Shown here: piece after piece, positions 20,955 through 62,487 of the stretch | How positions within the stretch are numbered: position 1 is the stretch's first letter | Layout of the letters: every line of letters begins with the position of its first letter | Virus record (IMG/VR): IMGVR_UViG_3300006947_000003 | Location: 1 to 64,000 of that record | Reading direction: 5' to 3' (one strand) | DNA length: 64,000 bases | Source: a virus | Made by a program: the position numbers and the translations under genes | Notes under the pieces: model-generated | Told to the model about the DNA's origin: nothing | Database searches by the model: none | Seen by the model: only the letters and a program-made list of their open reading frames with translations

Positions 20955-22465
20955 GAGCAAACTCTAACTTTATATTCTGTTTCAAACCTATCAGCATCTT
21001 CGCGGGTGTCAACCATTGGCTCGCCCCTGATATTGAGGCTTGTATTAAGTAGCATAGGACAACCGGTTAGTGTAAACCACTTTTCTAATAGTTGTCTCAC
21101 ACCACTTTCGCTGTTTTCTGGAACAGTTTGTACCCTACTAGTACCGTCTACGTGTACAATAGCAGGAAATTCTTCTGGCTTTTTACAGTTAGCAACGACT
21201 TGCATGTATGGTGATGTTGGTAAGTTTTTTGGCATTTCAAAATATTGATCTACAAATTCTTCCATAATTATTGGAGCAAATGGTCTAAATTTTTGCCTAC
21301 GTTTAATATCATTTACTTGATCTTTAATGTCTTCACCCCGAGGGTCTGCTAATAAACTTCTATTACCTAATGCTCTAGGTCCAAACTCTGCTCTGCCACT
21401 TGCTACACCTACTATTTTATTTGTGCTCAATTCGTTTAGTAAGTCGTCGACTGGATAGTCACCTTCAATGTTTGTACCTAAGTAAGGATGAGACCAGCGT
21501 ACATGTTTGCCGTATACTTTTGCCGCGGCACCTAAACTACTACCACAGTCTCCTGGGTTGGGCATTATCCAAACATTATCCCACCACTTGCCTAAGTTTC
21601 TATTATATAAACAGTTAAGGGCAACACCACCCTGATATACCAGGTTATTACTTTTGCCTAACTTTTTAGCACGAGCCATTACTTCGTCAATTAATTTTTC
21701 AACAACTGCTTGGGTACTTGCGGCAATATCCATTTCGTCTATATCTTTTAAGAATTCTTCGTCAACACCGGTGTGTAAGTTCTGTGTAAATTTTACATCA
21801 CCTATATCTTTAATAAGACTATTTTTAATAGTGTGTTCAACATCTGTGGCATTTTTGCCATGGCCTGCCATTCCCATCAAAATATATTCTTCGTCTTGTG
21901 GGCGTAGCCCGAGTCGTCCTGTCATTGCTGAATAATATAATCCTATAGAGTGAGGGTACTTTTGACTCCATAATTTTTTATAATCTACTTCACCATACCT
22001 TCCCATCATAGGAAATTTATTATATGTTGCTGACCAAATAGAAATAGTATCCCATTCTCCGATAGCATCTATTACTACAACTGTAGCATCCTGGAAGGGA
22101 GATGTTTGAAACCCAGAAGCAACATGTGACATATGATGATTGAGTGTGTGAACCTTTTTAGGTAACATATCATAATATGATCCAAAGTGCTTTTTTAAAG
22201 TTTGTTTAATTGTCCATGTTGACCCTTTTTTATATCCCTGTCCGGCATATATTTCTCTTGTCTTTTTCTTCCATGGTGTTTCGTAATATGCTACACAATC
22301 AAATGGACCATGCTTAAATGCTTCTTCGATTATTTCTGGACATAAATTTTTATCGTGTTTCTTTTTACTAAAGCGTTCACTGTGTCCAGCAAATAAAATT
22401 TTATCGTTGTGTAATACAGTTAGGCCAGCATCGTGAAATCCTGCACTCACACCTAGTATCTTCAT
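20951..22465 (-). CDS. O-carbamoyltransferase (NodU/CmcH/TobZ family)
   Basis: GFHDAG..SERFSKKKHD, HHMSH, DAIGE, EYILMGMA, GGVALNC, PGDCGSSLG, EFGPRALGNRS, RQKFRPFAP, HVDGTSRVQTV, LNTSLN. Confidence 0.95.
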   Translation of the reverse strand: MKILGVSAGFHDAGLTVLHNDKILFAGHSERFSKKKHDKNLCPEIIEEAFKHGPFDCVAYYETPWKKKTREIYAGQGYKKGSTWTIKQTLKKHFGSYYDMLPKKVHTLNHHMSHVASGFQTSPFQDATVVVIDAIGEWDTISIWSATYNKFPMMGRYGEVDYKKLWSQKYPHSIGLYYSAMTGRLGLRPQDEEYILMGMAGHGKNATDVEHTIKNSLIKDIGDVKFTQNLHTGVDEEFLKDIDEMDIAASTQAVVEKLIDEVMARAKKLGKSNNLVYQGGVALNCLYNRNLGKWWDNVWIMPNPGDCGSSLGAAAKVYGKHVRWSHPYLGTNIEGDYPVDDLLNELSTNKIVGVASGRAEFGPRALGNRSLLADPRGEDIKDQVNDIKRRQKFRPFAPIIMEEFVDQYFEMPKNLPTSPYMQVVANCKKPEEFPAIVHVDGTSRVQTVPENSESGVRQLLEKWFTLTGCPMLLNTSLNIRGEPMVDTREDADRFETEYKVRVCS

Positions 22466-23652
22466 AGGTATTCTCCAAATCTCTTGTCTAAATCTAGTAG
22501 GTTAGTAGACCGTTGTTTATCCATAGCTTTAGTAAGTAATGTTAATGATTGGCCTTTTGCGGCAATTGGTGCCTGACGTGTGAGTATACAATTAGTACAT
22601 TGTTGAATAAATTTTATTGTGTGGTTGTTGCGAGCTGTTTGTTCAATTGTATTTAGTTCTTCGACTAACTGAGTTCGATGTTCGTCAGTTAAGTTCCCGA
22701 TATCAAATCCCGTAGGCCATTCTAACGGTATAGCAAAGCTAGGTTGATTCCAATTTTCATATGTATCATACATTGTATCTAACCATTTAGCATACTCTCC
22801 TATGCCAAACACATTATACATCTGAAGTACGAAATTTGCCCCCATGCCAGCGGCGTGTGGTGCTAGTCTACCTATGTTCTTAGTTAACTTATTCCAATTA
22901 CCGTATGTTCGTATATACTCGTAATTAGATCCATAACCGTCAATACTAAATCGTAAGTTTGTATTAAAGTGAGCAATCCTTTCTAGGAAACTTTTTCTAG
23001 CGTTAGTGCCATTTGTTGTTATACTAATATGTACTTCTGGTCCTTTATCCAACTCGATCATTCTATCCATTAACGCTAAACAGTTTTCATCTAGAGTTGG
23101 CTCACCTCCTAACATGCGAATATTAGTAATGCCTATTAAGTATTCTTTTGGCGGCACAGCAAACGTGGGAGGTTCTAATCCATCTGCTATATCTCGTTCA
23201 CCGTATAGTTCAACTAGTGTTTGACTCTCTCCAGCGTGTTCTGCAATTAAACTCGAGTCAACCGGTGTACACATTCTACACATGAGGTTACATTTATTAT
23301 TTGGTCTTACATCTAGTTGTAGTACAGGAGGTTTGTCACCAAATTGTTCTAGTACTTGTTCTTCGCTTTCTAATTTAAAAGTTTGTACAGCAACTTGCCT
23401 ATGGCTTTGTTTTTGATTGCTCTCATCTCTTTCGCATTTGCGGCAAGCAGTAGGCCATTCATCATCTCTAAAGTTTTGCTTTAGGTTTTCCCAATAAGGT
23501 TCTGTAAATCTTCCATCCATGGCTTCTTGTAAACTATTAGCTGTTATAGATTCTACAGCATCACAGCATACTTTTATTCTATGACCCTTAGGATGATTCC
23601 TACCTCTATAGTATAAGTTCATATAAGGATATGGACAAAATAATTTACTCAT
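22462..23652 (-). CDS. Radical SAM protein, N-terminal twitch/SPASM-like domain
   Basis: CPYPY..VCC..CRKCERDE..SHR; CNLMCRMC; LGGEP; AGGAG RBS before ATG 23652. Confidence 0.9.
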   Translation of the reverse strand: MSKLFCPYPYMNLYYRGRNHPKGHRIKVCCDAVESITANSLQEAMDGRFTEPYWENLKQNFRDDEWPTACRKCERDESNQKQSHRQVAVQTFKLESEEQVLEQFGDKPPVLQLDVRPNNKCNLMCRMCTPVDSSLIAEHAGESQTLVELYGERDIADGLEPPTFAVPPKEYLIGITNIRMLGGEPTLDENCLALMDRMIELDKGPEVHISITTNGTNARKSFLERIAHFNTNLRFSIDGYGSNYEYIRTYGNWNKLTKNIGRLAPHAAGMGANFVLQMYNVFGIGEYAKWLDTMYDTYENWNQPSFAIPLEWPTGFDIGNLTDEHRTQLVEELNTIEQTARNNHTIKFIQQCTNCILTRQAPIAAKGQSLTLLTKAMDKQRSTNLLDLDKRFGEYL

Positions 23653-24967
23653 AGTACTCCTTGAACTCTGGGAAGGTTTTAACAAAGTCTGTTCCTCTCC
23701 GTTTGTCTAGTTCGTGTACATATGATTTTAAATCTTCTCGTTGTTTAGTAAAATCGTTCTGTTGCTGATGCTTCCAGTACTTGTATATACGTTCCATCTT
23801 AGCAGTCTCATCTTCGTCGAACCATTTAGATTTAGCCATGTACTTCCAGCTTTTCTCTATAAGGTCACCCTCTTTCATAATTTTACAGTCTAAAAATTCA
23901 GGATGTCTAACATAAGGAATATCTACGTAGACTGATTCTTTACCGTACCGCTCTCTTATAAGTTCAATGTCTTTCATGAACATTGTAAAACTGCTAATAC
24001 TTAATGCATTATAGGCACACATGAAAGTGATCGGAACTTCTGGTAAAGTTTCGATACATTGTGCTACACGTCTAATAAATTCATCGTAGTTCATACCAAA
24101 TCTAATGTAATCGTTTTTATCGTCCCATGCTTCTGCTGATGTGTATATTTCTAACTTGCGAAGTTTATTACTATCTAATATTTCTCGGGATTGTTTTAAA
24201 AACTTATTAAATAGTTTATCAGGTACGCCAAAATTAGCATTAATACCTAACAGTAAATTAGTATTTGGTTCTTCTGCTTCTTGAATATAATCTAATACTT
24301 TAAAAGTATTCTTGTTCATTAACGGCTCACCACCTGTTATTCTAAACGTGTGTAAGCTCTGATACAGTCTAGGCCACCATTTCCAAAATGCTTCTTGGTA
24401 AGGATTGTGTTCACGTTCTGGTATAGGCATTTGGCCTGCATGTTCTAGCCATTCTAAGTTGTTATACTTGTTGCTTGTTGGATACGGTCCATGCTGTTTA
24501 ATTTCTTCCATCCATTTAGAACTAATATGTGGAGCACAATAGATACACTTAAAGTTACAAGCATTACCAAAACTTACTTCAACGTATGTAGGATCAAAGT
24601 CTTCGTCGCCTTCCATTGCTGCAATTTTATTAAAGTGCGGTTCACTCCAACTAAAGCTACTTTTATAATGCCTATCGCTTAACATCTCAGGAGCCGCATC
24701 TTCTACTCTCCAACAGTAATCGCATTCTTTAGGACGCACACCGTTAAGCATTTCCTTGCGGCGTTCTTTTTTAAACTTTGTATTATGTAAAGCACTAGGG
24801 TTTACTTCTAGTTCCTCTAGAGGAATTTTATGTGTACTCGGATGATGACAACTCTGTGTATGACCGTTTTGTAAATGTAAAGTTACTTGGGTCCATTTGG
24901 CAAGGCACAGGCTTGGACTTTTCTCGTCTAACCTCTTTTGCATTTCGCGCCAGTTTTTATTCGCCAC
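23645..24967 (-). CDS. Radical SAM protein (CLAKW/SCHH variant N-terminal domain)
   Basis: CLAKW..SCHHP..CDYCWRVE..SDR; CNFKCIYC; TGGEP. Confidence 0.9.
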   Translation of the reverse strand: MANKNWREMQKRLDEKSPSLCLAKWTQVTLHLQNGHTQSCHHPSTHKIPLEELEVNPSALHNTKFKKERRKEMLNGVRPKECDYCWRVEDAAPEMLSDRHYKSSFSWSEPHFNKIAAMEGDEDFDPTYVEVSFGNACNFKCIYCAPHISSKWMEEIKQHGPYPTSNKYNNLEWLEHAGQMPIPEREHNPYQEAFWKWWPRLYQSLHTFRITGGEPLMNKNTFKVLDYIQEAEEPNTNLLLGINANFGVPDKLFNKFLKQSREILDSNKLRKLEIYTSAEAWDDKNDYIRFGMNYDEFIRRVAQCIETLPEVPITFMCAYNALSISSFTMFMKDIELIRERYGKESVYVDIPYVRHPEFLDCKIMKEGDLIEKSWKYMAKSKWFDEDETAKMERIYKYWKHQQQNDFTKQREDLKSYVHELDKRRGTDFVKTFPEFKEYYE

Positions 24968-25661
24968 TATATAGATCCTTTAATAATTGGAATGTTTCGT
25001 CGGGACCAGTTACATGATAAAACTTATCGTATAACCTTAACATTTCTACTAACGGATAGTCATTGCCTGTAGTCTCACATCGATCACCAAAAAATACTAA
25101 AGGCGTTCCTATAGTATTATAAACTTGTGATTTATTTCTACCCTTCATGAATATATCTAAACTAGTGTTTCCGCCAATTGATGCCTCAAAGCCTGGAAAC
25201 TTTTTATTAAACCTTTGTGATATGTCTAATCGTTCACCGTGTTCGTTATCCCACTCAAAGTAAACATCTCTGGCTTCTTCGGGCATATCTCGTCCAGCTA
25301 TACAAAAGTTAATTACGCCTACACGTTTTTCAATATGATTACCATATCTATGTGGGTAAGCACTTTTTTCTAATTCGTTTTCTAACCATCCTATCATATC
25401 TTCTGGTGGTGTAAAGTTTGTTTGTGCTATAGGAATACCATATCGCCATACATCATTGCCAGCACACTGGAAAGCCATGCTACAATTATCTACAATCTCT
25501 GGTCCTATTTGTTCTATTGTTTTTGGTCTGTCACTGCCTGTTACGAGGTAAACAGTTTTATCTTTCATCCAATCAATAAACCAAGACTTAAAGTCGGGGT
25601 CCATTAGTTGTCTAGCATGAGTTAATGTTCCGTCTACGTCGAAAACAAAATTCTTTTCCAT
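24957..25661 (-). CDS. Phosphomannomutase, HAD-IIB (eukaryote-type PMM family)
   Basis: FDVDGTLT, VTGSD, HIEKR..INF...GR, GGNTSLDI, FFGDR...GNDY. Confidence 0.85.
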   Translation of the reverse strand: MEKNFVFDVDGTLTHARQLMDPDFKSWFIDWMKDKTVYLVTGSDRPKTIEQIGPEIVDNCSMAFQCAGNDVWRYGIPIAQTNFTPPEDMIGWLENELEKSAYPHRYGNHIEKRVGVINFCIAGRDMPEEARDVYFEWDNEHGERLDISQRFNKKFPGFEASIGGNTSLDIFMKGRNKSQVYNTIGTPLVFFGDRCETTGNDYPLVEMLRLYDKFYHVTGPDETFQLLKDLYSGE

Positions 25662-25662
25662 A

Positions 25663-26217
25663 TTATGATCCTAAATATTCTACTGCCTTGATGACAGGGA
25701 CACCTGCTTGTAGTACCCTGGCCTCTCCGCCTACCTCAGGCAAGTTAACCACACAACCAAATGCTAATACATTAGCTCGCCATTCACGTTGTATGATATT
25801 AATAACAGCTAACGCAGTACCGCCTGTTGCTAGTAAGTCGTCTATTATAATAACATTCTCTCCGTCGTGGATAGAATCAGATTGTATTTCCAATGTTGCT
25901 GAACCGTATTCTAATTTAAATTCTTGTCCGTGTACAGCACCTGGAAGTTTGCCCTTTTTTCTAGCTAGTACTAATGGCACATTAAATCTATGTGCTAATA
26001 CACCGCCGAATATAAATCCCCTAGCATCAACGGCCACAATACGATCAACCTTATGTTTGTATTTTAGCATACGATCATACATAAAGTTTTGTGCTAATCT
26101 CAAACCAGGCCCATTACATAAACTAGAAGTATCTTTAAAGTCTACTCCCTTGACTGGCCAATCAGGATATGTTTTAATATAATCCTTAATTAGTTTTCTG
26201 TTTTTGCCATCAGCCAT
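25663..26217 (-). CDS. apt: Adenine phosphoribosyltransferase
   Basis: PDWPVKGVDFKD, DARGFIFG, ARKKGKLPG, LEYG, IIDDLLATGGT PRPP motif. Confidence 0.95.
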   Translation of the reverse strand: MADGKNRKLIKDYIKTYPDWPVKGVDFKDTSSLCNGPGLRLAQNFMYDRMLKYKHKVDRIVAVDARGFIFGGVLAHRFNVPLVLARKKGKLPGAVHGQEFKLEYGSATLEIQSDSIHDGENVIIIDDLLATGGTALAVINIIQREWRANVLAFGCVVNLPEVGGEARVLQAGVPVIKAVEYLGS

Positions 26218-27337
26218 TGTCGATAGCTTTCCTTAGTTCCTCTACACCTGCCCTAATACCTTTAGGGTGTGTGTGGATTGCGCCGCCTACATTTGCCATC
26301 CAGTCGTTGCCGAATTTTTCTCTAATAACAGGAATTAAATCCTTTGTCATGCCGCAACTAAATGCCGGAGTAAGATTTTGTTCTAAACAAACATTTTGAA
26401 TATTTTTAAGTTCTTCATACCCCATGTCCATATAGCCGCCGTACATACCAGCGTGAATTGTATCACATCCTATGAGGCCTGCTAACTTACACATAACTGC
26501 CCATTCAATTCTGTAGGCATTGTACTTGCTTGTAAGAACTTTATCGCCACTCTTTTGAAAGTGTATGAATGTTCCATTGTCTTCGTCTCTAATAGCCTTG
26601 TAAGCACCCATGCCACTCCAGAAGTTAATATGTACTCCCATACCTCCCCATCCACTAACAGTTCTTGCTTTGTCCATTAATGTGTGCGGATCTGAATTAA
26701 TACAATAACAATAAACAGTTTTAGATCCATCAATGATAGGCTGTACTATGCCGATCCTTTCTTCAAGGGTTAAACAAGCAGGGTTGCTCATAATCTCATC
26801 TTCTTTAATAAAATCAGTGCCGCCATCTACCATTTGTTGTACAATATCTTTTAATGTAGCAGGAGAAAGTCCTGTTTTTGGTTTAACAATAGTACCTAAT
26901 AACGGTTTATCATATTGTTGAACGTGATCTCTAAAGCCAGTGAGACCGTATGCTGGCGCTGATAAATCTGCTTTGACTCTATCAATATTAATATCAGTCC
27001 AATGACATTGCTGTATAATGTCAATGTCCATTTGCCCTCCCATCACAGTACACATTAGTTGAGCTATGCCATCTGCATACCAATCAATGTTTCTATAAGG
27101 CCAGGCAATTTCGACTACACCTGCTTGAACAACTGCTAAGTCATCTGGGTCAGCTATAATCTTAGCACTATGATTTTCCATCATTTCCGTTGTTTCATAT
27201 TTACTTCGCACAGACGGGTTACCGATACTTTGTCCTATTGCTAATCCTTCGGCCGCTTCTTTTAGTGTTGTTTTACTTTGTAAAAAGAAGTGACAGCTAA
27301 AGTGATCTTCGGGTTTATTTGCTCTATATATTTCCAT
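26210..27337 (-). CDS. RuBisCO-like protein (form IV, RLP)
   Basis: PLLGTIVKPKTGL, GGTDFIKEDE, GCDTIHAG, PAFSCG, NVGGAIHTHPKG; no loop-6 Lys. Confidence 0.9.
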   Translation of the reverse strand: MEIYRANKPEDHFSCHFFLQSKTTLKEAAEGLAIGQSIGNPSVRSKYETTEMMENHSAKIIADPDDLAVVQAGVVEIAWPYRNIDWYADGIAQLMCTVMGGQMDIDIIQQCHWTDINIDRVKADLSAPAYGLTGFRDHVQQYDKPLLGTIVKPKTGLSPATLKDIVQQMVDGGTDFIKEDEIMSNPACLTLEERIGIVQPIIDGSKTVYCYCINSDPHTLMDKARTVSGWGGMGVHINFWSGMGAYKAIRDEDNGTFIHFQKSGDKVLTSKYNAYRIEWAVMCKLAGLIGCDTIHAGMYGGYMDMGYEELKNIQNVCLEQNLTPAFSCGMTKDLIPVIREKFGNDWMANVGGAIHTHPKGIRAGVEELRKAIDNG

Positions 27338-27355
27338 AATGTTATTATACCTTCT

Positions 27356-27685
27356 TTAGTTCTGAATGTCAAATGAATATTTGTCATCTGTGTTACAAAT
27401 ATCCTTTACTACTATTACTTTAATGTCTGTTAAAAATTCTACAATGCTTACTTCATAAGGTTCAATAACAAAAATATCATTTGCTTTCAAGTGTTTGCCG
27501 TTACAAATCATTTCGCCTTCTATAATAAATGTTACTTCTCGTTGTTCCTTATGAAAATGATCTTGGTGGAACTCACCTTTAGTGTGTGTATGATATGCTA
27601 CTTCAAAGTTGGCGGGCATTGCCGTTGTTGGAAAGTCCCCAACAAACCAACCTTTGAACATATCTTTAAAGTCAAATGTTTTCAT
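27356..27685 (-). CDS. Cupin-domain protein
   Basis: KGWFVGDF..HQDHFHKEQREVTFIIEG cupin motif; probable start MKTFDF at 27685. Confidence 0.75.
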   Translation of the reverse strand: MKTFDFKDMFKGWFVGDFPTTAMPANFEVAYHTHTKGEFHQDHFHKEQREVTFIIEGEMICNGKHLKANDIFVIEPYEVSIVEFLTDIKVIVVKDICNTDDKYSFDIQN

Positions 27686-27686
27686 G

Positions 27687-28418
27687 TTATTTCCTGTAAT
27701 GCCTATGTGTATAATGTTGCCAATCGTGTTGTACACCTACAGGCCAAAATGTATTCGCATGTACTCGATCAACTCGGACATCATGTCCTTCTGTAATTAG
27801 TTCGTTATAAACCGCCGCAACATAATATTCTCCATATTCTGGTGGCTTACTTAATAATGTGTTAACACTATCGTTAAATACTTCACCGTTATGGAAATGA
27901 TAAAATCCAGTGGTAGCATTGTTCGTAGGAAGTCCTGCTGTTGTTTTTTCCGTACATAGATGAACCTTATCAGTATCACCTTCGGTATGAGCAAAACTAT
28001 GTCGTTCGGTATCTGTGTGATTATAAATTGCTATGTAACTAGACTCGGGGTTATTAGTTATTTTCTTTTGTAGGCTAGTAGTATCCCATTCAAACACTTG
28101 ATCGCAATTAACACTAATAAAAGGGTTGCTACTAGTCATTACTTCGCTACATTTTTGTAATGTTTCAGCCGCTCCTTGTGTTGTTTCCTCTATTGCTGTA
28201 ATACTACCCATACTTTCTAACAATGGTTTCATAAAAGGATGATCTTTAAGATGTTGCATTTTTACAACAAAATGCCAATCAGCGTCAGGCCACTCTAAAC
28301 TGTAATACACATTTTGTATCATAGTCGTGTTGCCAGTTCTAATTAAAGGCTTTGGGTAAAGATGTCCTTGTTCCTGGAAACGTGATCCAAGCCCTGCCAT
28401 TGCTACTACTATATTCAT
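27687..28418 (-). CDS. Sugar-phosphate nucleotidyltransferase (NTP_transferase family)
   Basis: VAMAGLGSRF..PKPLI, TQGAAET, NCDQ, EK..ATTGFYHF, EYYVAAVYN. Confidence 0.85.
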   Translation of the reverse strand: MNIVVAMAGLGSRFQEQGHLYPKPLIRTGNTTMIQNVYYSLEWPDADWHFVVKMQHLKDHPFMKPLLESMGSITAIEETTQGAAETLQKCSEVMTSSNPFISVNCDQVFEWDTTSLQKKITNNPESSYIAIYNHTDTERHSFAHTEGDTDKVHLCTEKTTAGLPTNNATTGFYHFHNGEVFNDSVNTLLSKPPEYGEYYVAAVYNELITEGHDVRVDRVHANTFWPVGVQHDWQHYTHRHYRK

Positions 28419-28549
28419 TTGTATATAAACGGATCCCGTTTTTTAATGTCTTTGAGTTTCTTTCTATATGCTCTTTCCATTTTAATTCTATCTACTATAT
28501 CAGTAAAGAATTTCTTAATACGTTTAAGTATTCGTTTAAGTATGTTCAT
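28415..28549 (-). CDS. Small basic 44-aa protein ending KKRDPFIYK
   Basis: Below the ORF-track cutoff; AGGAGAG RBS; ATGA overlap with 28418; MNILKRILKRIKKFFTDIVDRIKMERAYRKKLKDIKKRDPFIYK. Confidence 0.75.
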   Translation of the reverse strand: MNILKRILKRIKKFFTDIVDRIKMERAYRKKLKDIKKRDPFIYK

Positions 28550-29312
28550 TAGACTCTCCTATTTGTTTTATTACAAAGTTTGCTATATGTTTATATCCCA
28601 TTTTATTAGGATGTCGACACTTTAAGACTAAGTCTGGTGTGACAATTGGATTAATTTGTTCTATAAAGGATGGCACATAGTATTTAATATTTTTTGTGAG
28701 TTGGGGGTTGTAGTTATGACTGCTAGTATTAAACTCAGGTATGTCTAATGCTAGGAACTGGTGTAGTTCAATATTATTTGCTTTACATATCTCTTGTAAT
28801 CCCCACATAAAATTTCTGGTTATTGGTACATCTACATCTGGATGTTTTAACATTGTTATTGTCTTATGAAGTTTTTTTGGTTCTTTTACATTACGAAGTA
28901 TGTCTGATCTGTCTACGTCACTAGCGTCCATATTGGCACTATGTGACCATGCCCAATATTGCCTGTCAGTCCAATTGAATTCACTAACACCATTTTCAGA
29001 CCATACCTCTGTTGGAATAGGAATCTCTGTGCGTTCAGCACTTGACCAAGCAACTATAATAACAACTTTAGATAAGTCACCATTGTAGTCTTGTATAAAT
29101 TCTATAGTTCTTCTGTACATTCTAGCGTTACTGCCGCCGCCTCTACCGTCATTAATTAGTTGAGGTATATTGTAATGTTCTTTAACATGCCAAGGCCATG
29201 TGTTATAAAATTTATAACTCTGTTCATCGCTAGGATGATCTGCGTGTTCCAGTCCTTCGCCGTAAGTCCAGCTATCACCTGTTGTATATAAAAGTGTTTT
29301 ATCTTGCATCAT
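28536..29312 (-). CDS. SGNH/GDSL-fold hydrolase/acyltransferase-like
   Basis: GDSWTYG, GRGGGSN, RHPNKMGY. Confidence 0.75.
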   Translation of the reverse strand: MMQDKTLLYTTGDSWTYGEGLEHADHPSDEQSYKFYNTWPWHVKEHYNIPQLINDGRGGGSNARMYRRTIEFIQDYNGDLSKVVIIVAWSSAERTEIPIPTEVWSENGVSEFNWTDRQYWAWSHSANMDASDVDRSDILRNVKEPKKLHKTITMLKHPDVDVPITRNFMWGLQEICKANNIELHQFLALDIPEFNTSSHNYNPQLTKNIKYYVPSFIEQINPIVTPDLVLKCRHPNKMGYKHIANFVIKQIGESNEHT

Positions 29313-30036
29313 ACCATTTCATAATATTGTTAAAAACTACTCTATGCCCTGTGTGATTAAAATGACCACTACCTAGTGAGTCTGGGTAATCTTCACTTAA
29401 TGCTCCAAAGGTTGCTTGAATTGAATTATCTTTAAATGTGTTTTCTAGTTCAGCCCATTCAGTAAGCAACAACCAGTTGTTAGTTTTTTCTTTAAGTCTG
29501 TGTAATTGTGTAGCAAGTAAACTAAAATCTACATGTCGTTTTACTTTACTATCGTGTACTAATTTAATGTACTGATCAAGTGCTGTTATCCTAGACTTTG
29601 GTTCTCTAGATAACGACTGACTAGCCCCTAATTTGTCTTGGGCATGTAATAATAAATTACTACAGGTTTCTGATTGGATTGTATTGTTAGGAGAGAACGG
29701 TAACTTAGTTAAAAGAAATTGATCATAATCCTCATAATTGAGTTCTTCAATACTTATGTTGTGCTTGTTGTTGTATACAATGCCGGGTCGTAGCCAATGT
29801 AATCTATCTTCGTTAGTAGTACTTATAATATAAAATGCATCTTTGTCAAAATTATCAACTATCCATTTAACCATTAAACTAATAGAAAAATTACAGCAAC
29901 CAGGTCTGGCTAAACTTGTTAATGTAGCGTTGAGATGTTCTGCTACTCTAACAGGATACGATACTTCAAATCTATCTTTTCCCAATCCCATGCCGCATGG
30001 GAAACTATCCCCGCAACTAATTATATTTTTTACCAT
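29299..30036 (-). CDS. SGNH/GDSL-fold hydrolase/acyltransferase-like
   Basis: CGDSFPCG, ARPGCCN, GHFNHTGH. Confidence 0.7.
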   Translation of the reverse strand: MVKNIISCGDSFPCGMGLGKDRFEVSYPVRVAEHLNATLTSLARPGCCNFSISLMVKWIVDNFDKDAFYIISTTNEDRLHWLRPGIVYNNKHNISIEELNYEDYDQFLLTKLPFSPNNTIQSETCSNLLLHAQDKLGASQSLSREPKSRITALDQYIKLVHDSKVKRHVDFSLLATQLHRLKEKTNNWLLLTEWAELENTFKDNSIQATFGALSEDYPDSLGSGHFNHTGHRVVFNNIMKWYDAR

Positions 30037-30360
30037 TTAAAATACTCCGTCTGTGTGTGGTGTTGAGGCATTGTTTAATTTGTTTTCTAATTCTTGTTTA
30101 GACGATCCAACAGCCTGTAAGGCCTCTTCGCATGTTGCTGGAAGGCGTTTACCGTTGTACGTATCGTCGTATGCTTTCCAGAATGCTGATTGAATATTTT
30201 CCTCTACGTCATTTTCTTTCATAACTATTGTCATCTTATCTTTAAACTTTTCTAATTTTGGTAAGTCTTCTTCGCATACTTGTACAATACCACCCGCGGC
30301 TGCGCCAACGAACATTGCGGCAATCACATTTGGTATAGCATTAAGAAACAGTTCTACCAT
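30037..30360 (-). CDS. Hypothetical protein with hydrophobic N-terminus
   Basis: NVIAAMFVGAAAGGIV hydrophobic segment; in operon. Confidence 0.55.
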   Translation of the reverse strand: MVELFLNAIPNVIAAMFVGAAAGGIVQVCEEDLPKLEKFKDKMTIVMKENDVEENIQSAFWKAYDDTYNGKRLPATCEEALQAVGSSKQELENKLNNASTPHTDGVF

Positions 30361-31220
30361 TTTAGTTCCTTTTTAATATATTTTTCAAGTTTGTCGGCCC
30401 ATAGTGTATGACCTAATTCGTTAGGATGTTGCCCAATAATTGTTGAATCTAATCCTCTATCTTTTAAGAAACCAAAAAAACTATCTGATAGAAATGTTTT
30501 TTGATCTAAACATTCCCACATAGTCTTATTCATCTCGTTGCCGTAATGATGATGGCGCCCAGGGTGGTTCTCTCCTAATTCTGCTTTTTTAAATTGGTCA
30601 TTTATATAACCAGAGTTTTTATAATCTACAAAAGTATCAATATCCTCATCTGCTCCGTGTATACCTACTCCTCTATCGTAGAATGCTTGGAACATTAATA
30701 ATTTAATATTATGTACTTTACATAAGTTTTCCATTGCTGTTAATTGATGAACATATCTGTTTAATGCTTCACGCTCGTCCCATAGATACGTTACATATTG
30801 TTTAAAGAATTCGTTCATACCTGGCTGATGATAATCATGACCTGCTTGTTGCGGCCATATAGTTGTCCAGTTGCTAGTTCCTTTTTTGTATGGATCTGTA
30901 TAGAAAAAGTCTTTGCGCTCTGGACTAGTCCATCCAACAATGATAGCAAGGTCGCAACAGTCTTTATTTTGACCAATGTAGTTTTCATACAACCAACTTT
31001 CGGTGTGTCTTACTATACGATCGTTACTAGCCGCCGGGTAAGATATATTAGTTAATCCCATGCCTAACCTTTTAGCAAGTATTGTTGGCCAAATTTTAGG
31101 AATACGATAACTGTTATTTTTTACGTCCCAGTCAGCAACTGCTGTAGGCAATTTTGGATCTTTAATCTCAGATCCAAATGACCAGCTGTCGCCCGCTACT
31201 AATAACTCACTCATATTCAT
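30354..31220 (-). CDS. SGNH/GDSL-fold hydrolase/acyltransferase-like
   Basis: AGDSWSFG, PAASNDRI, GWTSPER, QHPNELGH. Confidence 0.75.
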   Translation of the reverse strand: MNMSELLVAGDSWSFGSEIKDPKLPTAVADWDVKNNSYRIPKIWPTILAKRLGMGLTNISYPAASNDRIVRHTESWLYENYIGQNKDCCDLAIIVGWTSPERKDFFYTDPYKKGTSNWTTIWPQQAGHDYHQPGMNEFFKQYVTYLWDEREALNRYVHQLTAMENLCKVHNIKLLMFQAFYDRGVGIHGADEDIDTFVDYKNSGYINDQFKKAELGENHPGRHHHYGNEMNKTMWECLDQKTFLSDSFFGFLKDRGLDSTIIGQHPNELGHTLWADKLEKYIKKELKW

Positions 31221-31647
31221 ATCCTAGTTTAGTATTATATTCTTTAAACATTTTTAATATATTGGGTTTTAATTCTTTCATAACATCATTTTCTTTATAA
31301 CGAGATTTTTCTTTGTGCTCTGGGTAAAATTTTTCGCCAGTTAGTTGTTGTATGTAATTAGCTGTTGTTTCCATGCTGTTGTAGTGAAAGCGTTTACAGT
31401 TACTAGGAATATCAGGAATATCAGGAACAACAACTTTATCTAAAAATTTCTTTTGTATTAGACCGCTATCATGCCATTGATCAAAGAATATTCTAAAGCA
31501 ATCTTTGTATACAATAAAACTATGTAATGCTGTATTAGTATCTGATTCTATTGTAGCGTGTTTGTGATTTTTAAATCCGTACAGCATTTCTTCGTCTGCG
31601 CCTGAGATATTATAATAACAAAATAAGCCAACGGTGCTAATAATCAT
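31207..31647 (-). CDS. Hypothetical protein
   Basis: TAATG overlap start at 31647; in operon. Confidence 0.5.
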   Translation of the reverse strand: MIISTVGLFCYYNISGADEEMLYGFKNHKHATIESDTNTALHSFIVYKDCFRIFFDQWHDSGLIQKKFLDKVVVPDIPDIPSNCKRFHYNSMETTANYIQQLTGEKFYPEHKEKSRYKENDVMKELKPNILKMFKEYNTKLGYEYE

Positions 31648-32369
31648 TAATACGCATCTCTTATTGTTTGCCAATCTAATACAGGATCTAAGTCAACTAC
31701 TGATGTACGCCAGAGTGTTTCGCCTAATTGGGGATTAAGTTGTATCATTCTTAAATTGTATTTTTGTCCTAATTGATACATTATTGTTCCTGGTGAATAC
31801 ATAGTATCTTCTGGGTCTATGTTACCACCAGTTATACATGTTTGTTGTTTTTGCATTAATGTCCAATTATAATACCTGTAACTATCACTAACAATGTCCA
31901 TAGCATGACTATTACCCCAGTATATTATATCACTAAAGCCATGTGTAGCAAAGTCGGTTAATACTAATCCATTGTTGCCTATGCTATAGTATATGCTTCG
32001 ATCAATTACATCTGTATATGTCCAACGCTTGTGTACTGGTATTAGTAAATCAAATCTACATTTAATTACAATGTCGTATCTAAAGTTATTTTTAATTTCG
32101 TGTTGCCTTTTAAGCCAATTGGATTGCTGTATACTGTATAACATATTGCCACAAAAGCCTTTGTGTTTCCATGGTGTTTCTACAAATGACTCAACGGGAT
32201 CTAAAAGTTCGTTAAGTTGTGCCCAGTCTTCTTCGGGCTGGTCATCGTCCCAAGCATGATAAAAATGATCTGCTTTTATGTTTTCAAAAAACTTTAACAA
32301 GTAAGGAACAGCTCGTAGTCCAGTTCTTAATTGCCCGCTCCAACATATAGCAATTTTAGGTGATCTCAT
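31647..32369 (-). CDS. Putative glycosyltransferase-like protein (IAxCxSGQxR family)
   Basis: IAICWSGQLR, HAW, YDIVIKCRFD. Confidence 0.6.
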   Translation of the reverse strand: MRSPKIAICWSGQLRTGLRAVPYLLKFFENIKADHFYHAWDDDQPEEDWAQLNELLDPVESFVETPWKHKGFCGNMLYSIQQSNWLKRQHEIKNNFRYDIVIKCRFDLLIPVHKRWTYTDVIDRSIYYSIGNNGLVLTDFATHGFSDIIYWGNSHAMDIVSDSYRYYNWTLMQKQQTCITGGNIDPEDTMYSPGTIMYQLGQKYNLRMIQLNPQLGETLWRTSVVDLDPVLDWQTIRDAY

Positions 32370-33189
32370 GGGAACCTCCGCTGTAATGGTTTTCTTCTCG
32401 TTTTAATTTTATAGGCATGTATGTTTGCTTAGGTTTAATATGGTTTGCTTTTATATGAAATGATAAAACGTGTTCAGGCCCGTATGCTTCTTGCCTGCCT
32501 AAATCAAACCATTCTCGTTTATACTTTGGAATACAACTATAAAAATCACAAATACGATCATAATCAAAACTAGGAGCTGACCAGTAAACATCACTACATC
32601 TGTATCTATGAAAATCGTCAAACGTTTGATGTATTACATTAACGTTGCCTAATGCTATTGGTGACAACCTATATTCTTCTTCAACAATCTTGCCTAATGC
32701 TATTGGCTGAAAGCGTTCTCCTTCAGCCGTGATGTCTAATGCTGGCGGTGACATCTTATATTCTTCTTCAACATAGTTGTCAAATCTCATTCTAACACAC
32801 AAATCATATTCCATAGCAAACTCGCGTTCGTACTGTTGCTTTAAATGGCAAGCCATCATTACACCATAAAACTGGCTATGATAATTAGGGTCAAATACTG
32901 CCCATTCGTGTTGATCCTTACCTCTGTTAACAAAGTCAATGGGATCTTCAACTAATATTTTTTTAGGTTTTAATAATCTCTTAACTATATTAAGTTCTGT
33001 ATTACTGTGAACTTTTTCTTCGTTATCGTTATTAGCGTGTGCTACTTTATTTGGCGCTGTAGAGTTAGTCCACGTATGTACAAAATAGTCTACTTCGTCG
33101 GTGAGTGGGTCAAACATTTTCTCCCAACTAGGAATACATTCTTCGTATCTTCCTCTTAACTGGCCACTGACACAAACTGCTATTTTCAT
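32356..33189 (-). CDS. Putative glycosyltransferase-like protein (IAxCxSGQxR family), with internal duplication
   Basis: IAVCVSGQLR, FVHTW, SQFYG, YDLCVRMRFD, GPEHVL. Confidence 0.6.
   Translation of the reverse strand: MKIAVCVSGQLRGRYEECIPSWEKMFDPLTDEVDYFVHTWTNSTAPNKVAHANNDNEEKVHSNTELNIVKRLLKPKKILVEDPIDFVNRGKDQHEWAVFDPNYHSQFYGVMMACHLKQQYEREFAMEYDLCVRMRFDNYVEEEYKMSPPALDITAEGERFQPIALGKIVEEEYRLSPIALGNVNVIHQTFDDFHRYRCSDVYWSAPSFDYDRICDFYSCIPKYKREWFDLGRQEAYGPEHVLSFHIKANHIKPKQTYMPIKLKREENHYSGGSHEIT
32645..32773. repeat. Interleaved 17-bp direct repeats within a CDS
   Basis: ttgcctaatgctattgg at 32645 and 32690; tatattcttcttcaaca at 32670 and 32757. Confidence 0.8.
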
Positions 33190-33626
33190 TCTATAACTCC
33201 GATGTAATCACTACAAATACCGTAGCAATCTTTATATATTTTTAATTCTTCTGCTGTAGGTCTTTCCATATGACAAACAACTGACTTAGGACCATACTTG
33301 TTATAATCTGAATGTGTCCAAATATAACCATGGTTTGTTAATGTAACATCGTCTCCTTGGTGCCAAAAACAATTAATGCCTTCGTTGGTCATATACTCTA
33401 GTGCTTGTATGTCTTTAGCGTGGCACCATAACCCCTTCATTTTTAGCATATTCTTGTTAACTGATGCTATAGGGCTATCGTGTCCTAGTTGAACCATACC
33501 GTTGCTATACCACACATCTATTTCAACATCATATCCTTCTGCTAGTGCTTCAAAAATATAATGTGGGCTGTTTTCCCTTTTAGGATTTGGCCCAAATAAA
33601 TTACCTCTATGACTTATCTTTCTCAT
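33186..33626 (-). CDS. Glycerophosphodiester phosphodiesterase-like (PLC-like) protein
   Basis: ISHRGN..ENSP..DVEIDVW..LGHD..WCHAK..GICSD. Confidence 0.75.
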   Translation of the reverse strand: MRKISHRGNLFGPNPKRENSPHYIFEALAEGYDVEIDVWYSNGMVQLGHDSPIASVNKNMLKMKGLWCHAKDIQALEYMTNEGINCFWHQGDDVTLTNHGYIWTHSDYNKYGPKSVVCHMERPTAEELKIYKDCYGICSDYIGVIE

Positions 33627-34372
33627 CCTACAAACGCCTTTTCTAAAACAAACGTTCCTTGTTCTTTAACACTACCTTCTTTCCAGCCGCGTCCTTCTAA
33701 ATATTCTTTCATCTCCATATTAAATGCCATGCTACCACATAGCATAACTTTATCTGTTTCTGGAGTTGCTTCGCTAAACAACGTTCCGTCTTTAATTAAA
33801 TTTGTTATTCTTCCTTTATGTTTGTGTGTAAGTCCCTCGTAATTTAAAGGTTCTTCACGTGTAAGTGTTGGAATATATGTACACTTGCCCATATTTAATA
33901 TACTAGCATAAGACTCTTGGGCGTTGTGTGTGCCTGTTGTCCAAGTAACATATACATTATCATAATATTCAAACGTCTCAGGGTCTCTTAATATACTCAT
34001 GAACGGAGCAATACCTGTACCGGTTGCCATTAGCCATAAGTTACCACCAAGTGCTATATTGGAAGTTGTTAATGTTCCTGTAGGCTTCTCACCTACAATT
34101 AATTCATCACCCACTTTAATATGCTGTAGTTTACTTGTTAATGGACCGTCGGGTACTTTGATACTATAGAATTCTAAAAACTCGTCATATGGCCCACTAC
34201 AAATACTGTATGCCCTCATTATAGGTTTGTTCTTTTGTAGTTTTTCTGACCAGTTGTCCAACCCAATCATTACAAACTCACCTGCTCTAAATCTAAAAGT
34301 ATTAGGTCTCTCTGTTCTAATTTTAAACAATGTGTCCGTAAAGTGTTCGACTCTAGTTACTTTTACTATCAA
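33623..34372 (-). CDS. fpr: Ferredoxin/flavodoxin-NADP+ reductase
   Basis: FRAGEFVMIGL, MRAYSI, YSIKVPDGPLTSKLQ, ATGTGIAPFMS, MLCGS, FVLEKAFV; probable TTG start at 34372 with GGAG RBS. Confidence 0.93.
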   Translation of the reverse strand: MIVKVTRVEHFTDTLFKIRTERPNTFRFRAGEFVMIGLDNWSEKLQKNKPIMRAYSICSGPYDEFLEFYSIKVPDGPLTSKLQHIKVGDELIVGEKPTGTLTTSNIALGGNLWLMATGTGIAPFMSILRDPETFEYYDNVYVTWTTGTHNAQESYASILNMGKCTYIPTLTREEPLNYEGLTHKHKGRITNLIKDGTLFSEATPETDKVMLCGSMAFNMEMKEYLEGRGWKEGSVKEQGTFVLEKAFVG

Positions 34373-34860
34373 AATAAATGTCTCCATTGTATATTAGGAT
34401 GTTGGTGTTCAATAGCTTTCATTTTTTCTTTCCATGTATCCATTAATGCTCGATCCCATTTAGTTTGTTGTGTTTTGTCCATATCCCACGGCGTAGGTTT
34501 AGTCCAAGACCAGGTTTCGTCTTTCTCTATACGATTTTTTAAACAGTCAAAGCCTACTGTATGAATAATTGTGCCACCTAGTTCAACAGCATATTTCATT
34601 TGTAAAGTTCCTGTAATATCAAAATCGTCCGCTTCTTTAGGCACAATAAAGTTTTCTTTATCATTCCATTTAGTAATAATTTTGCCTTTGTATTCGTCGC
34701 TTAATAGTAATGCTGGTTCTTTGTCTGCTACCGCAATAAAATCTAAATCATTAAATCGTTTGTATTGGCGTTTTGTTCCTAGTTTAAAATCATATGGATA
34801 GTTACAAATATGTAAATTATCTTTTAAACTAACACCATTGCCTATACATAAGATTTTCAT
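34369..34860 (-). CDS. Hypothetical protein (IGNGxS motif, sialyltransferase/Maf-like fold possible)
   Basis: CIGNGVSL..DFIAVAD..TG..AVELG..VGFD. Confidence 0.5.
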   Translation of the reverse strand: MKILCIGNGVSLKDNLHICNYPYDFKLGTKRQYKRFNDLDFIAVADKEPALLLSDEYKGKIITKWNDKENFIVPKEADDFDITGTLQMKYAVELGGTIIHTVGFDCLKNRIEKDETWSWTKPTPWDMDKTQQTKWDRALMDTWKEKMKAIEHQHPNIQWRHLF

Positions 34861-62485: not shown

Positions 62486-62487
62486 AC

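What the first reader, a model, noticed from the sequence alone, without database searches (positions are those of the whole stretch)
24957..33626. RuBisCO-like protein in a phage, within a sugar-nucleotide cassette
Seen: an RLP with KPK and KEDE (Mg/carbamate site) but lacking loop-6 Lys and the HR motif (HFQK instead), so it is not a carboxylase. Its neighbours are a cupin, an NTP-transferase, Apt, PMM and a nearby GDPD-like gene. Established: RLPs act as enolases or isomerases in methylthioadenosine/methionine salvage and as (de/trans)carboxylases of branched sugar acids. Two hypotheses follow. It could recycle SAM by-products together with Apt and MetK. Alternatively it could make an unusual (branched) sugar phosphate that is then activated by the NTP-transferase for the GTs.
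Basis: partly seen in the sequence, partly recalled or inferred. Interest (0 to 1): 0.78.

Follow-up and report, generated by a model that had tools for sequence, protein, structure and literature searches.

The report
Phage RuBisCO-like sugar-activation cassette
A large marine tailed phage carries an intact RuBisCO relative that cannot fix CO2 and that travels with a sugar-activating enzyme, a small cupin and a miniature phosphodiesterase, so it most likely helps make an unusual activated sugar rather than recycle spent SAM.

Summary
Window 26210-27337(-) encodes an intact 375-aa RuBisCO-like protein (RLP). It keeps the Mg/carbamate site and the P1 phosphate site but has Q for H294 and Y for loop-6 K334. 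Its neighbours are PMM, Apt, a cupin, a sugar-1-P nucleotidyltransferase (NTP), two GT-A-fold transferases and a 146-aa mini-GDPD, in a 122-kb myovirus record.

The RLP belongs to a well-supported clade that matches the published, functionally unassigned 'Form IV-like' phage RLPs (Jaffe et al. 2019).

- In 80 viral loci with this RLP, NTP is present in 77, the cupin in 64 and the mini-GDPD in 65.
- MetK is present in 0, Apt in 2 and radical SAM genes in 15.
- RLP-NTP fusions exist in both orders.
- An RLP-less twin cassette (HAD-NTP-mini-GDPD) is common.
- The NTP tree needs at least 3 partner switches.

RLP(+cupin) therefore looks like one of several alternative feeders of the NTP-transferase. 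The SAM-salvage reading is not supported for the RLP. Apt, MetK, FNR and 12 radical SAM genes form a separate lineage-specific set.

The substrate is unknown. This scan had already found the same cassette on other DNA.

The parts
26210..27337 (-). RuBisCO-like protein (RLP), 375 aa, 'Form IV-like' clade. The Mg/carbamate site and the P1 phosphate site are kept. H294->Q, K334->Y, R295->K, H298->D.
27356..27685 (-). Small cupin, 109 aa from the ATG at 27685 (the longer GTG ORF to 27736 overlaps the NTP gene). Conserved H43-x-H45-(x)4-E50-(x)6-G57.
   Evidence: Present in 64/80 viral loci. Fused to NTP in 6 of the 80 viral loci.
27687..28418 (-). Sugar-1-phosphate nucleotidylyltransferase, 243 aa, 4EVW type, with the GxGxRF...K signature.
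   Evidence: Present in 77/80 viral and 33/39 cellular loci.
33186..33626 (-). Miniature GDPD-like phosphodiesterase (p146), 146 aa. HR, EN, ExD and HD motifs are invariant.
   Evidence: Present in 65/80 viral and 21/39 cellular loci.
31647..32369 (-). p240, a GT-A-fold (GT6-like) putative glycosyltransferase of the family that travels with the cassette.
32356..33189 (-). p277, a paralogue of p240 (21% identity in A4). Putative GT-A-fold glycosyltransferase by family membership only; it was not modelled.
24957..25661 (-). Eukaryotic-type phosphomannomutase (HAD-IIB). A lineage-specific add-on to the cassette (8/80 viral loci).
25663..26217 (-). Adenine phosphoribosyltransferase, inserted between RLP and PMM. 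Not part of the conserved cassette (2/80 loci).

Best explanation
The RLP is a catalytic, non-carboxylating member of the 'Form IV-like' RuBisCO-related clade. It works inside a nucleotide-sugar pathway, not in SAM or methionine salvage.

Shown:
- It sits in a conserved cassette: 4EVW-type sugar-1-phosphate nucleotidylyltransferase, small metal cupin, RLP, miniature GDPD-like phosphodiesterase.
- The cassette is often accompanied by a GT-A-fold transferase family and by SDR, aminotransferase and methyltransferase genes.
- The same cassette occurs in phages, a giant-virus bin, SAR11, CPR bacteria, DPANN archaea and an actinomycete.
- The RLP is sometimes fused to the nucleotidyltransferase.

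Inferred:
- The enzyme keeps RuBisCO's first half-reaction only. The carbamylated K178 with Mg2+ (D180, E181) and K152 would enolise a ketose phosphate held by the intact P1 phosphate site.
- With Q for H294 and Y for K334 it can neither hydrate/cleave nor carboxylate, so it should release an isomer (carbonyl shift or epimer).
- Together with the cupin, and in this phage the PMM, it delivers the sugar phosphate that the nucleotidyltransferase activates.
- The GT-A enzymes p240/p277 then transfer that sugar to a glycan.
- In most related viral cassettes a HAD-IA enzyme (beta-phosphoglucomutase/sugar-phosphatase-like) stands where RLP+cupin stand here. RLP+cupin are therefore best read as one of several interchangeable feeder modules for the same activating enzyme.
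- The mini-GDPD belongs to the NTP core. Its step is unknown.
For: Linkage:
- Of 80 viral loci fetched by RLP similarity (177 matched), NTP is present in 77, cupin in 64 and p146 in 65. The commonest order is NTP-cupin-RLP-p146 on one strand (21 loci).
- Of 39 cellular loci, NTP is present in 33, p146 in 21 and cupin in 11. These include a complete Ca. Pelagibacter chromosome, where the RLP sits among a GT9 gene and a CMP-sugar-synthetase-like gene.

Fusions:
- NTP-RLP (P0041, P0048, P0052, P0115) and RLP-NTP (P0123).
- NTP-cupin in 6 loci.
- HAD-NTP.
- p146 fused to NTP, HAD, NTP+HAD, methyltransferases and GT61.

Enzyme types:
- The NTP profile hits 4evw (5.6e-38), then GDP-mannose pyrophosphorylases, HddC and RmlA.
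- p240 has a GT-A fold (Foldseek 6e-7).

Active site: the catalytic K/K/K-D-E residues and the P1 residues are invariant, H294Q and K334Y are invariant, and the P2 site is variable.

Neighbour families: SDR epimerase/dehydratase in 42, FkbM methyltransferase in 25 and DegT aminotransferase in 16 of 119 loci.

Twin cassette:
- Among the 80 viral loci closest by NTP (of at least 591), HAD is present in 73, p146 in 63, cupin in 11 and RLP in 1.
- A HAD lies near the RLP in only 17/119 loci.
- On the NTP tree the RLP-linked and HAD-linked labels need 6 changes, of which at least 3 are forced.

Presence in RNA libraries: short contigs from metatranscriptome libraries match parts of PMM, Apt, RLP, cupin and NTP. 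Seven of 8 pieces have no differing letter and one has a single difference. This shows presence in RNA libraries, not transcription.
Against: - No substrate, product or activity is known for any member of the clade. Everything about the chemistry is inferred from residues and neighbours.
- The order of steps is open. Fusions in both orders fit an RLP acting before or after nucleotide activation.
- RLP and HAD are not strictly exclusive: 17/119 RLP loci have a HAD, and this window has a PMM. Because the HAD and RLP cassettes could make different sugars, 'interchangeable feeder' is an inference.
- The NTP tree is a FastTree tree with long-branch warnings.
- The two locus sets were chosen by different queries, so their frequencies are not population estimates.
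- The cupin is missing near the RLP in 16/80 viral and 28/39 cellular loci, so it is not obligatory.
- In this phage the RLP is flanked by Apt, lies 1.2 kb from two radical SAM genes and 5.4 kb from MetK, which is what suggested SAM salvage.
Confidence: 0.6

Rival explanations
1. The RLP acts after activation. The nucleotidyltransferase first makes an NDP-sugar (or NDP-ketose). The RLP, which is short (375 aa against about 430-475 aa for solved RuBisCO chains) and lacks the loop-6 lysine, then enolises the sugar moiety with the beta-phosphate lying in the P1 site. The cupin works as an NDP-sugar isomerase or epimerase.
For: - Fusions occur in both orders.
- The cupin is fused to the C-terminus of NTP in 6 loci.
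- The P2 site is variable while the P1 site is invariant.
- The alignment to 2cwx ends at residue 394 of 430, so the C-terminal tail is missing.
- Small cupins acting on NDP-sugars are a known kind (recalled: RmlC, FdtA).
Against: - RuBisCO-family enzymes characterised so far act on acyclic sugar phosphates (recalled).
- An anomerically linked NDP-pyranose cannot open to the 2-keto form.
- The HAD that replaces RLP(+cupin) in the twin cassette is a sugar-phosphate enzyme type, which points upstream of activation.
Confidence: 0.2
2. SAM by-product salvage. The RLP, with the cupin, processes 5-deoxyribulose-1-P or methylthioribulose-1-P derived from the 5'-deoxyadenosine or MTA produced by the phage's many radical SAM enzymes. 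Apt recovers the adenine and MetK remakes SAM.
For: - The window holds 12 radical SAM ORFs (Pfam E <= 0.002). Both ORFs scanned with NCBIfam are N_Twi_rSAM above cut-off.
- MetK lies at 19736-20827, an FNR-like reductase at 33623-34387, and Apt directly abuts the RLP.
- RLP plus cupin is the enzyme pair of the Rhodospirillum rubrum MTA-isoprenoid shunt, and RLP, HAD and cupin are consecutive in Bacillus methionine salvage (both recalled, not tested).
Against: - The linkage is not conserved: MetK 0/80, FNR 0/80, Apt 2/80, radical SAM 15/80 viral loci. In the 39 cellular loci: Apt 0, MetK 0, radical SAM 1.
- The 122-kb record shows no nucleosidase/phosphorylase (PF01048), MtnA (PF01008), MtnB (PF00596) or PRK.
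- MtnW models score 101-122 bits against cut-offs of 409-514.
- The partner that is conserved is a nucleotidyltransferase, which has no role in salvage.
Confidence: 0.07
3. A real RuBisCO (carboxylase), for example in an AMP/nucleoside pathway of form III type.
For: The best solved and NCBIfam matches are form III enzymes. K175, K177, K201, D203 and E204 are kept.
Against: - K334Y, H294Q, E60Q, T65N and W66P are invariant in 117/117 sequences.
- Scores are far below the cut-offs.
- The family forms a separate clade.
- The record has no e2b2 or PRK.
Confidence: 0.01
4. A catalytically dead scaffold or regulator that merely binds a sugar phosphate.
For: Several canonical residues are replaced.
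Against: The full metal/carbamate triad, both catalytic lysines and the new invariant residues (Q261, Y302, C328, H236, N238) are conserved at 37-56% overall identity across viruses, bacteria and archaea. That is the pattern of an active enzyme.
Confidence: 0.03

Closest known systems
'Form IV-like' RuBisCO-related proteins of phages (some Myoviridae) and Beckwithbacteria (Jaffe, Castelle, Dupont, Banfield; bioRxiv 10.1101/386292 and Mol Biol Evol 2019, PMC6389311; passages read)
   Same: - Divergent RLPs on large myovirus-type phage genomes from many environments, grouping with Beckwithbacteria sequences and apart from other RLPs, with key residues that differ from known form IV.
- The window's protein forms such a clade (SH-aLRT 99).
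- It has a Beckwithbacteria homologue at 44% identity (L091).
   Different: In the passages I read, that paper left the function unclear and did not describe a link to a nucleotidyltransferase, cupin or GDPD-like gene. Its supplementary figure S1 of gene context could not be seen. I could not place its own sequences in my tree.
Rhodospirillum rubrum RLP (methylthioribulose-1-P 1,3-isomerase) with its cupin partner in the MTA-isoprenoid shunt (recalled; no paper read here)
   Same: An RLP next to a small cupin, with enolisation-based isomerisation of a 1-phospho-2-ketose and no carboxylation.
   Different: - MTA phosphorylase/MtnA context is absent here.
- The conserved partner here is a nucleotidyltransferase.
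- This family is a separate clade.
- Sequence comparison with the R. rubrum proteins was not possible.
Bacillus/Geobacillus MtnW, 2,3-diketo-5-methylthiopentyl-1-phosphate enolase (PDB 2oek, 2zvi)
   Same: The second-best group of solved relatives (E 1.5e-24). It is a non-carboxylating RLP that keeps the Mg/carbamate site.
   Different: NF007095 scores 122 bits against a cut-off of 409, and TIGR03332 scores 101 against 514. It falls in a different clade, and there is no methionine-salvage neighbourhood.
GDP-mannose route: cupin-type phosphomannose isomerase, phosphomannomutase, mannose-1-P guanylyltransferase (including bifunctional NTP-cupin enzymes; the pathway is recalled)
   Same: - The window has a cupin, a PF03332 PMM and an NTP-transferase whose profile hits GDP-mannose pyrophosphorylases (E about 2e-12 to 3e-11).
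- NTP-cupin fusions exist.
   Different: - An RLP is inserted.
- The NTP is much closer to the uncharacterised 4evw (5.6e-38).
- The cupin is only 109 aa and has no PMI Pfam hit.
- PMM accompanies the RLP in only 8/80 loci.
RLPs of D-apiose catabolism (OiaX, 3-oxo-isoapionate-4-phosphate decarboxylase)
   Same: RLPs acting on branched sugar-acid phosphates.
   Different: NF042437 scores 105.7 bits against a cut-off of 700. OiaX-like representatives lie in another clade. The context here is anabolic, not catabolic.

Membership tests
RuBisCO carboxylase (forms I-III) | Carbamylated Lys201 with Mg ligands Asp203 and Glu204, plus Lys175 and Lys177 | tested here: met
   K178, D180, E181, K152 and K154 are each 117/117 (numbering recalled and mapped through the 2cwx alignment).
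RuBisCO carboxylase (forms I-III) | Loop-6 Lys334, His294, and the P2 phosphate site Arg295/His298 | tested here: not met
   Y302 117/117 and Q261 117/117. K262 in 102/117 (S in 15). D265 in 97/117 (A in 15, I in 5).
RuBisCO carboxylase (forms I-III) | Score above the curated NCBIfam cut-offs | tested here: not met
   NF003252 139.8 against 438, TIGR03326 135.2 against 497.45, NF010002 67.4 against 489.
'Form IV-like' phage/Beckwithbacteria RLP clade (Jaffe et al. 2019) | One clade with phage and Beckwithbacteria sequences, apart from other RLPs and true RuBisCOs | tested here: met
   - 26 family rows plus one fragment form a clade with SH-aLRT 99, apart from OiaX-like, MtnW-like, form II and form III-like representatives.
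- 177 viral contigs match.
- A Beckwithbacteria homologue, L091, is 44% identical.
- Caveat: the paper's own sequences were not at hand.
MtnW (DK-MTP-1P enolase) | Equivalog score and methionine-salvage neighbours (MtnA, MtnB, MtnK) | tested here: not met
   122.1 against 409 and 100.9 against 513.6. No PF01008 or PF00596 in the 122-kb record (the record is 34% complete).
R. rubrum-type RLP/cupin MTA-isoprenoid shunt | Orthology to the DeepYkr RLP and its cupin, with MTA phosphorylase and MtnA alongside | not testable with these tools
   No reference sequences were available. Context enzymes are absent from the record.
Sugar-1-phosphate nucleotidylyltransferase (for 27687-28418) | N-terminal GxGxR...K nucleotide-binding signature and the fold family | tested here: met
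   G9, G11, R13, F14 and K23 are invariant in 29 sequences. The profile hits 4evw, GDP-Man pyrophosphorylases, HddC and RmlA. Pfam hits for the window protein are below cut-off.
Glycerophosphodiester phosphodiesterase (for 33186-33626) | Catalytic HR, EN, ExD and HD motifs | tested here: met
   H6, R7, E18, N19, E35, D37 and H49 are invariant in 29 sequences. Profile E 9.2e-5 to 7e0v residues 13-66.
Glycerophosphodiester phosphodiesterase (for 33186-33626) | Full (beta/alpha)8 barrel of about 220-250 aa, with a Pfam GDPD match | tested here: not met
   146 aa. No Pfam or NCBIfam family at E 0.01. Foldseek E 1.4e-3 and TMq up to 0.58 to GDPDs of 217-254 aa.
Cupin superfamily (for 27356-27685) | Motif 1, G(x)5HxH(x)3-4E(x)6G | tested here: met
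   H43, H45, E50 and G57 are invariant in 28 sequences. Cupin_2 structures hit at E 1.3e-4. The motif-2 histidine is not conserved.

The most novel reading that the evidence does not exclude
The RuBisCO fold has been recruited as a 'mutase bypass' in nucleotide-sugar synthesis. Instead of moving the phosphate, as the HAD enzyme of the twin cassette may do, the RLP would walk the carbonyl along a ketose phosphate held by its P1 site. The recalled precedent is the 1,3-isomerisation by the R. rubrum RLP. The cupin would finish the isomerisation, giving a 1-phospho sugar, possibly a ketopentose or other rare ketose. The 4EVW-type nucleotidyltransferase would activate it and a dedicated GT-A family would install it on a viral or cell-surface glycan. 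This would be a sugar-donor pathway with no described counterpart, shared by phages, giant viruses, SAR11, CPR and DPANN.
Probability: 0.15. Interest if true: 0.85.

Novelty: new variant of a known kind. Interest (0 to 1): 0.58.

Why it matters
RuBisCO-like proteins are a classic case of an old fold put to new uses, and every assigned RLP so far works in sulfur/methionine salvage or sugar-acid catabolism (recalled). A large clade carried by abundant marine phages, SAR11, CPR bacteria and DPANN archaea, wired or fused to a sugar-activating enzyme, would give the fold its first anabolic, glycan-building role. It would also point to an unknown sugar on the surfaces of some of the ocean's commonest cells and viruses.

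The cassette is small (four genes). Its natural 'swap' partner, the HAD version, offers a built-in comparison, so the question is directly testable by expression and metabolite screening.

The gene family itself is already published, and this scan has met the same cassette several times. The value of this window is mainly as one more intact example, with the added twist of a neighbouring SAM-supply gene set.

Tried and rejected
- Phage database look-ups with the RLP protein and with 20 kb of DNA found nothing. The tool warns that the window's own record may be left out.
- Complex prediction of RLP (A1) with NTP (A5) gave 'no answer', score 0.00. I take nothing from it either way.
- The search for related loci with the p146 alignment failed because no stretch was conserved enough. 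I went on with a 'longer' protein search for p146 fusions and with the NTP alignment.
- My first count of the NTP-selected loci wrongly scored 'cupin' in 79 loci, because some cupin queries were NTP-cupin fusions. One search exposed this and repeats the count with small cupins only (11/80). The figures are withdrawn.
- In one search my greedy ORF caller picked a plus-strand ORF (25625-26182) in place of Apt. I corrected this by hand.
- I considered DNA hypermodification as the use of the sugar. I rejected it as the main reading because the same cassette sits in cellular glycan contexts: GT9, CMP-sugar-synthetase-like and WavE genes. It was not tested further.
- The KfoE/BcbE (E. coli K4 fructosylation) lead from earlier notes could not be tested, because no reference sequence was reachable. 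I only read passages of a review stating that kfoE deletion removes fructose (PMC8858990).
- The HAD partner could not be resolved as mutase or phosphatase. Its solved relatives include beta-phosphoglucomutases, sugar phosphatases and CbbY.
- RNA evidence: only short contigs from RNA libraries were laid. They do not show transcription, strand or level.
- 'Not in print' rests on searches only. Subscription journals and supplements are outside them. Supplementary files of Jaffe et al., which may show phage gene context, were not seen.
As a result, neighbour clusters 7-30 are only partly annotated: clusters 7, 10 and 15 were scanned, and 7 and 10 gave no useful match.

Full report
WHAT IS THERE.

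The window is the first 64 kb of a single 122,450-bp virus record. CheckV rates the record 34% complete. PHROG matches to tail sheath (E 3e-225), portal, large terminase and an SbcC-like nuclease show a myovirus. From 0.7 to 59 kb almost every ORF lies on the minus strand.

The finding's interval holds, in order of transcription:
- a sugar-1-phosphate nucleotidylyltransferase (NTP, 28418-27687);
- a 109-aa cupin (27685-27356);
- the RuBisCO-like protein (RLP, 27337-26210);
- adenine phosphoribosyltransferase (26217-25663);
- a eukaryotic-type phosphomannomutase (25661-24957).

Upstream of the NTP gene lie three ORFs with an N-terminal GDS motif, two of them DUF6071. Beyond these are two paralogous 240/277-aa proteins and a 146-aa protein (33626-33186).

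The RLP matches PF00016 at E 1.9e-31. Its best solved relatives are P. horikoshii form III RuBisCO (E 2e-28) and DK-MTP-1P enolases. It scores far below every curated RuBisCO or RLP cut-off in NCBIfam.

I mapped spinach numbering (recalled) through the 2cwx alignment and counted residues over 117 family members:
- K175, K177, K201, D203, E204, S379, G381 and G403 are invariant.
- H294 is always Q and loop-6 K334 is always Y.
- E60, T65 and W66 are always Q, N and P.
- The distal (P2) phosphate site varies: R295 is K in 102 and S in 15; H298 is D in 97, A in 15 and I in 5; H327 is H in 93 and Q in 24.

The neighbours are also confirmed:
- The cupin has no Pfam hit, but it has the invariant HxH-E-G motif and a family profile hits Cupin_2 structures.
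- The 146-aa protein keeps the GDPD catalytic motifs HR, EN, ExD and HD.
- It folds with pLDDT 95 into a reduced barrel whose best Foldseek matches are mostly GDPDs.

WHICH CLADE.

The representative search found 832 relatives. Full-length members of the family score about 180-354 bits, and other RuBisCO-superfamily representatives score about 130 bits or less.

I built a tree of 104 rows, comprising family members and other representatives of 380-500 aa (shorter rows were left out). Ten of those other representatives were labelled with NCBIfam.
- The family is one clade with SH-aLRT 99.
- It is separate from OiaX-like, MtnW-like, form II and form III-like sequences.
- Its sister group is only weakly supported.

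Relatives are encoded on 177 IMG/VR contigs. They are also found in 39 genome-collection loci: many Pelagibacteraceae including a complete chromosome, Woese-, Nano-, Pace- and Micrarchaeota, Beckwithbacteria, Saccharibacteria, Verrucomicrobia, Elusimicrobia and Nonomuraea rosea.

This matches the 'Form IV-like' clade that Jaffe et al. reported. They described about 90 phage sequences, some from Myoviridae, grouping with Beckwithbacteria, with function left unclear (passages read). The GOS paper had earlier noted unplaced marine RuBisCO homologues (passages).

WHAT TRAVELS WITH IT.

I ran tblastn of all window proteins against the 80 best viral loci, which carry up to 10 kb on each side.

| Gene | Viral loci (of 80) |
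|---|---|
| NTP | 77 |
| p146 | 65 |
| cupin | 64 |
| p240/p277 | 18 |
| carbamoyltransferase | 10 |
| PMM | 8 |
| Apt | 2 |
| any of the 12 radical SAM ORFs | 15 |
| MetK | 0 |
| FNR | 0 |

The commonest order is NTP-cupin-RLP-p146 on one strand. In the 39 cellular loci NTP is present in 33, p146 in 21 and cupin in 11.

Clustering all ORFs within 6 kb of the RLP (119 loci) added further families:
- the wider p240-like family, in 59 loci;
- SDR epimerase/dehydratases, in 42;
- FkbM methyltransferases, in 25;
- a second methyltransferase family, in 22;
- DegT aminotransferases, in 16;
- WavE-like proteins, in 9.

The p240 model (pLDDT 82) has a GT-A fold closest to GT6 transferases.

Two cellular contexts were examined:
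- In the complete Pelagibacter chromosome the RLP sits with a HAD-NTP fusion, a GT9 transferase, a 2-hydroxyacid dehydrogenase, a second NTP gene and a cytidylyltransferase.
- In Nonomuraea it lies on an island flanked by an integrase and a transposase, together with GT2, an AdoHcyase_NAD-like protein, a dNK-like protein and a radical SAM gene.

FUSIONS.
- NTP-RLP (four proteins) and RLP-NTP (one protein).
- NTP-cupin, in six of the 80 viral loci.
- HAD-NTP.
- p146 is fused to NTP_transf_3, to HAD, to NTP+HAD, to two kinds of methyltransferase and to GT61. Many p146 proteins of about 370 aa carry no Pfam domain.
- One locus carries a p146 fusion with a p240-like domain.

The NTP profile is closest to the uncharacterised 4evw. 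Next come GDP-mannose pyrophosphorylases, HddC and RmlA, which are anomeric sugar-1-phosphate enzymes.

THE TWIN CASSETTE.

After correcting a labelling error, the counts are HAD 73/80, p146 63/80, p240-like 22/80, cupin 11/80 and RLP 1/80. The single RLP locus is the close relative of this phage.

Conversely, a HAD of either type lies near the RLP in only 17/119 loci. On a FastTree tree of 189 NTP rows (183 of them labelled), the RLP-linked and HAD-linked labels need 6 changes. At least 3 of those are forced by well-supported branches.

The HAD domain resembles beta-phosphoglucomutases, sugar phosphatases and CbbY about equally.

So NTP plus p146 is the constant core, and HAD, cupin or RLP+cupin are alternative feeders.

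READING.

Three things are shown:
- The RLP is an intact, strongly constrained enzyme.
- It is not a carboxylase.
- Its conserved and sometimes covalent partner is a sugar-activating enzyme inside glycan gene sets.

The following is inferred:
- It performs RuBisCO's enolisation step on a ketose phosphate bound through the P1 site and releases an isomer.
- With the cupin (and here the PMM) it supplies the NTP-transferase.
- p240/p277 transfer the product.

Whether the RLP acts before or after nucleotide activation is open. So are the identity of the sugar and the step catalysed by the mini-GDPD.

The SAM-salvage idea fails on linkage and on the absence of the other pathway enzymes from the record. 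The record is incomplete, which limits that second point. Apt, MetK, the FNR-like reductase and 12 radical SAM ORFs remain a sensible SAM-supply set of this phage lineage.

OTHER EVIDENCE.

Eight short contigs from four metatranscriptome libraries match parts of PMM, Apt, RLP, cupin and NTP; seven have no differing letter and one has a single difference. Two of those libraries look like one data set. This shows presence in RNA libraries only.

NOVELTY.

The gene family in phages is published. Its tie to a nucleotidyltransferase/cupin/mini-GDPD cassette was not found in print by searches. This scan has already reported the same cassette on other DNA. I therefore rate it a new variant of a known kind, of moderate to good interest and testable with four proteins.

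Noticed in passing
window 767-15957, 22462-24967 (minus strand) and 59298-60455 (plus strand): Twelve radical SAM ORFs (Pfam E 1.7e-14 to 2e-3, several below the gathering score). Three carry an N-terminal SPASM-like hit. The two scanned with NCBIfam are N_Twi_rSAM, 'twitch domain-containing radical SAM', at 230 and 316 bits against a cut-off of 170. This is an unusually large paralogous set for a phage, and the substrates are unknown.
   Followed up: partly
window 19736-20827, 33623-34387, 25663-26217: SAM synthetase (MetK), a ferredoxin-NADP reductase-like flavoprotein and Apt. Together with the radical SAM genes they look like a SAM-supply and electron-supply set. None is conserved next to the RLP elsewhere (0, 0 and 2 of 80 loci).
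   Followed up: partly
window 20951-22465: NodU/CmcH-type carbamoyltransferase (PF16861 E 7e-53, PF02543 E 1e-37), suggesting O-carbamoylation of a sugar. Relatives lie near the RLP in 10/80 viral loci.
   Followed up: no
window 42343-55332 and 55332-58859: ORFs of 4329 aa and 1175 aa lie next to PAAR and gp5-like baseplate genes (60467-63873). The giant one has one FG-GAP repeat and a weak CBM5/12 hit. It is probably a fibre or spike protein and possibly the target of the glycan genes.
   Followed up: no
window 28536-29312, 29299-30036, 30354-31220: Three paralogous ORFs with an N-terminal GDS(W/F) motif, two of them matching DUF6071. They look like SGNH/GDSL-type esterases or acyltransferases between the NTP gene and the GT-A genes.
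   Followed up: no
protein P0196 (583 aa): A TIR domain fused to a full RuBisCO-like protein of another clade (TIR_2 E 3e-13, PF00016 E 1e-45). It might be a defence-type protein in which an RLP handles a TIR-made nucleotide.
   Followed up: no
proteins P0173 and P0185 (726 and 742 aa): IF-2B (ribose-1,5-bisphosphate isomerase/MtnA family) fused to a RuBisCO with full N and C domains. Two consecutive enzymes of the AMP pathway are joined in one chain.
   Followed up: no
L118 (Nonomuraea rosea contig), about 2000-14700: The p146-RLP-cupin-NTP cassette sits with GT2, an AdoHcyase_NAD-like dehydrogenase, a dNK-like kinase and a radical SAM gene, between a phage-type integrase and a transposase. 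This is a mobile island in an actinomycete.
   Followed up: partly
window 18399-18803: T4 endonuclease V-type pyrimidine-dimer glycosylase (PF03013 E 2e-17).
   Followed up: no
RLP family alignment: Active-site subtypes exist. The window's type (Q102, Y209, N214, H259, K262, D265, H295, H355) is the commonest, at 50 of 116. A viral subtype with H, F, N, H, S, A, Q, H at these eight sites (15 loci) changes Q102, Y209 and all three P2-site positions, which hints at different substrates within the clade.
   Followed up: partly
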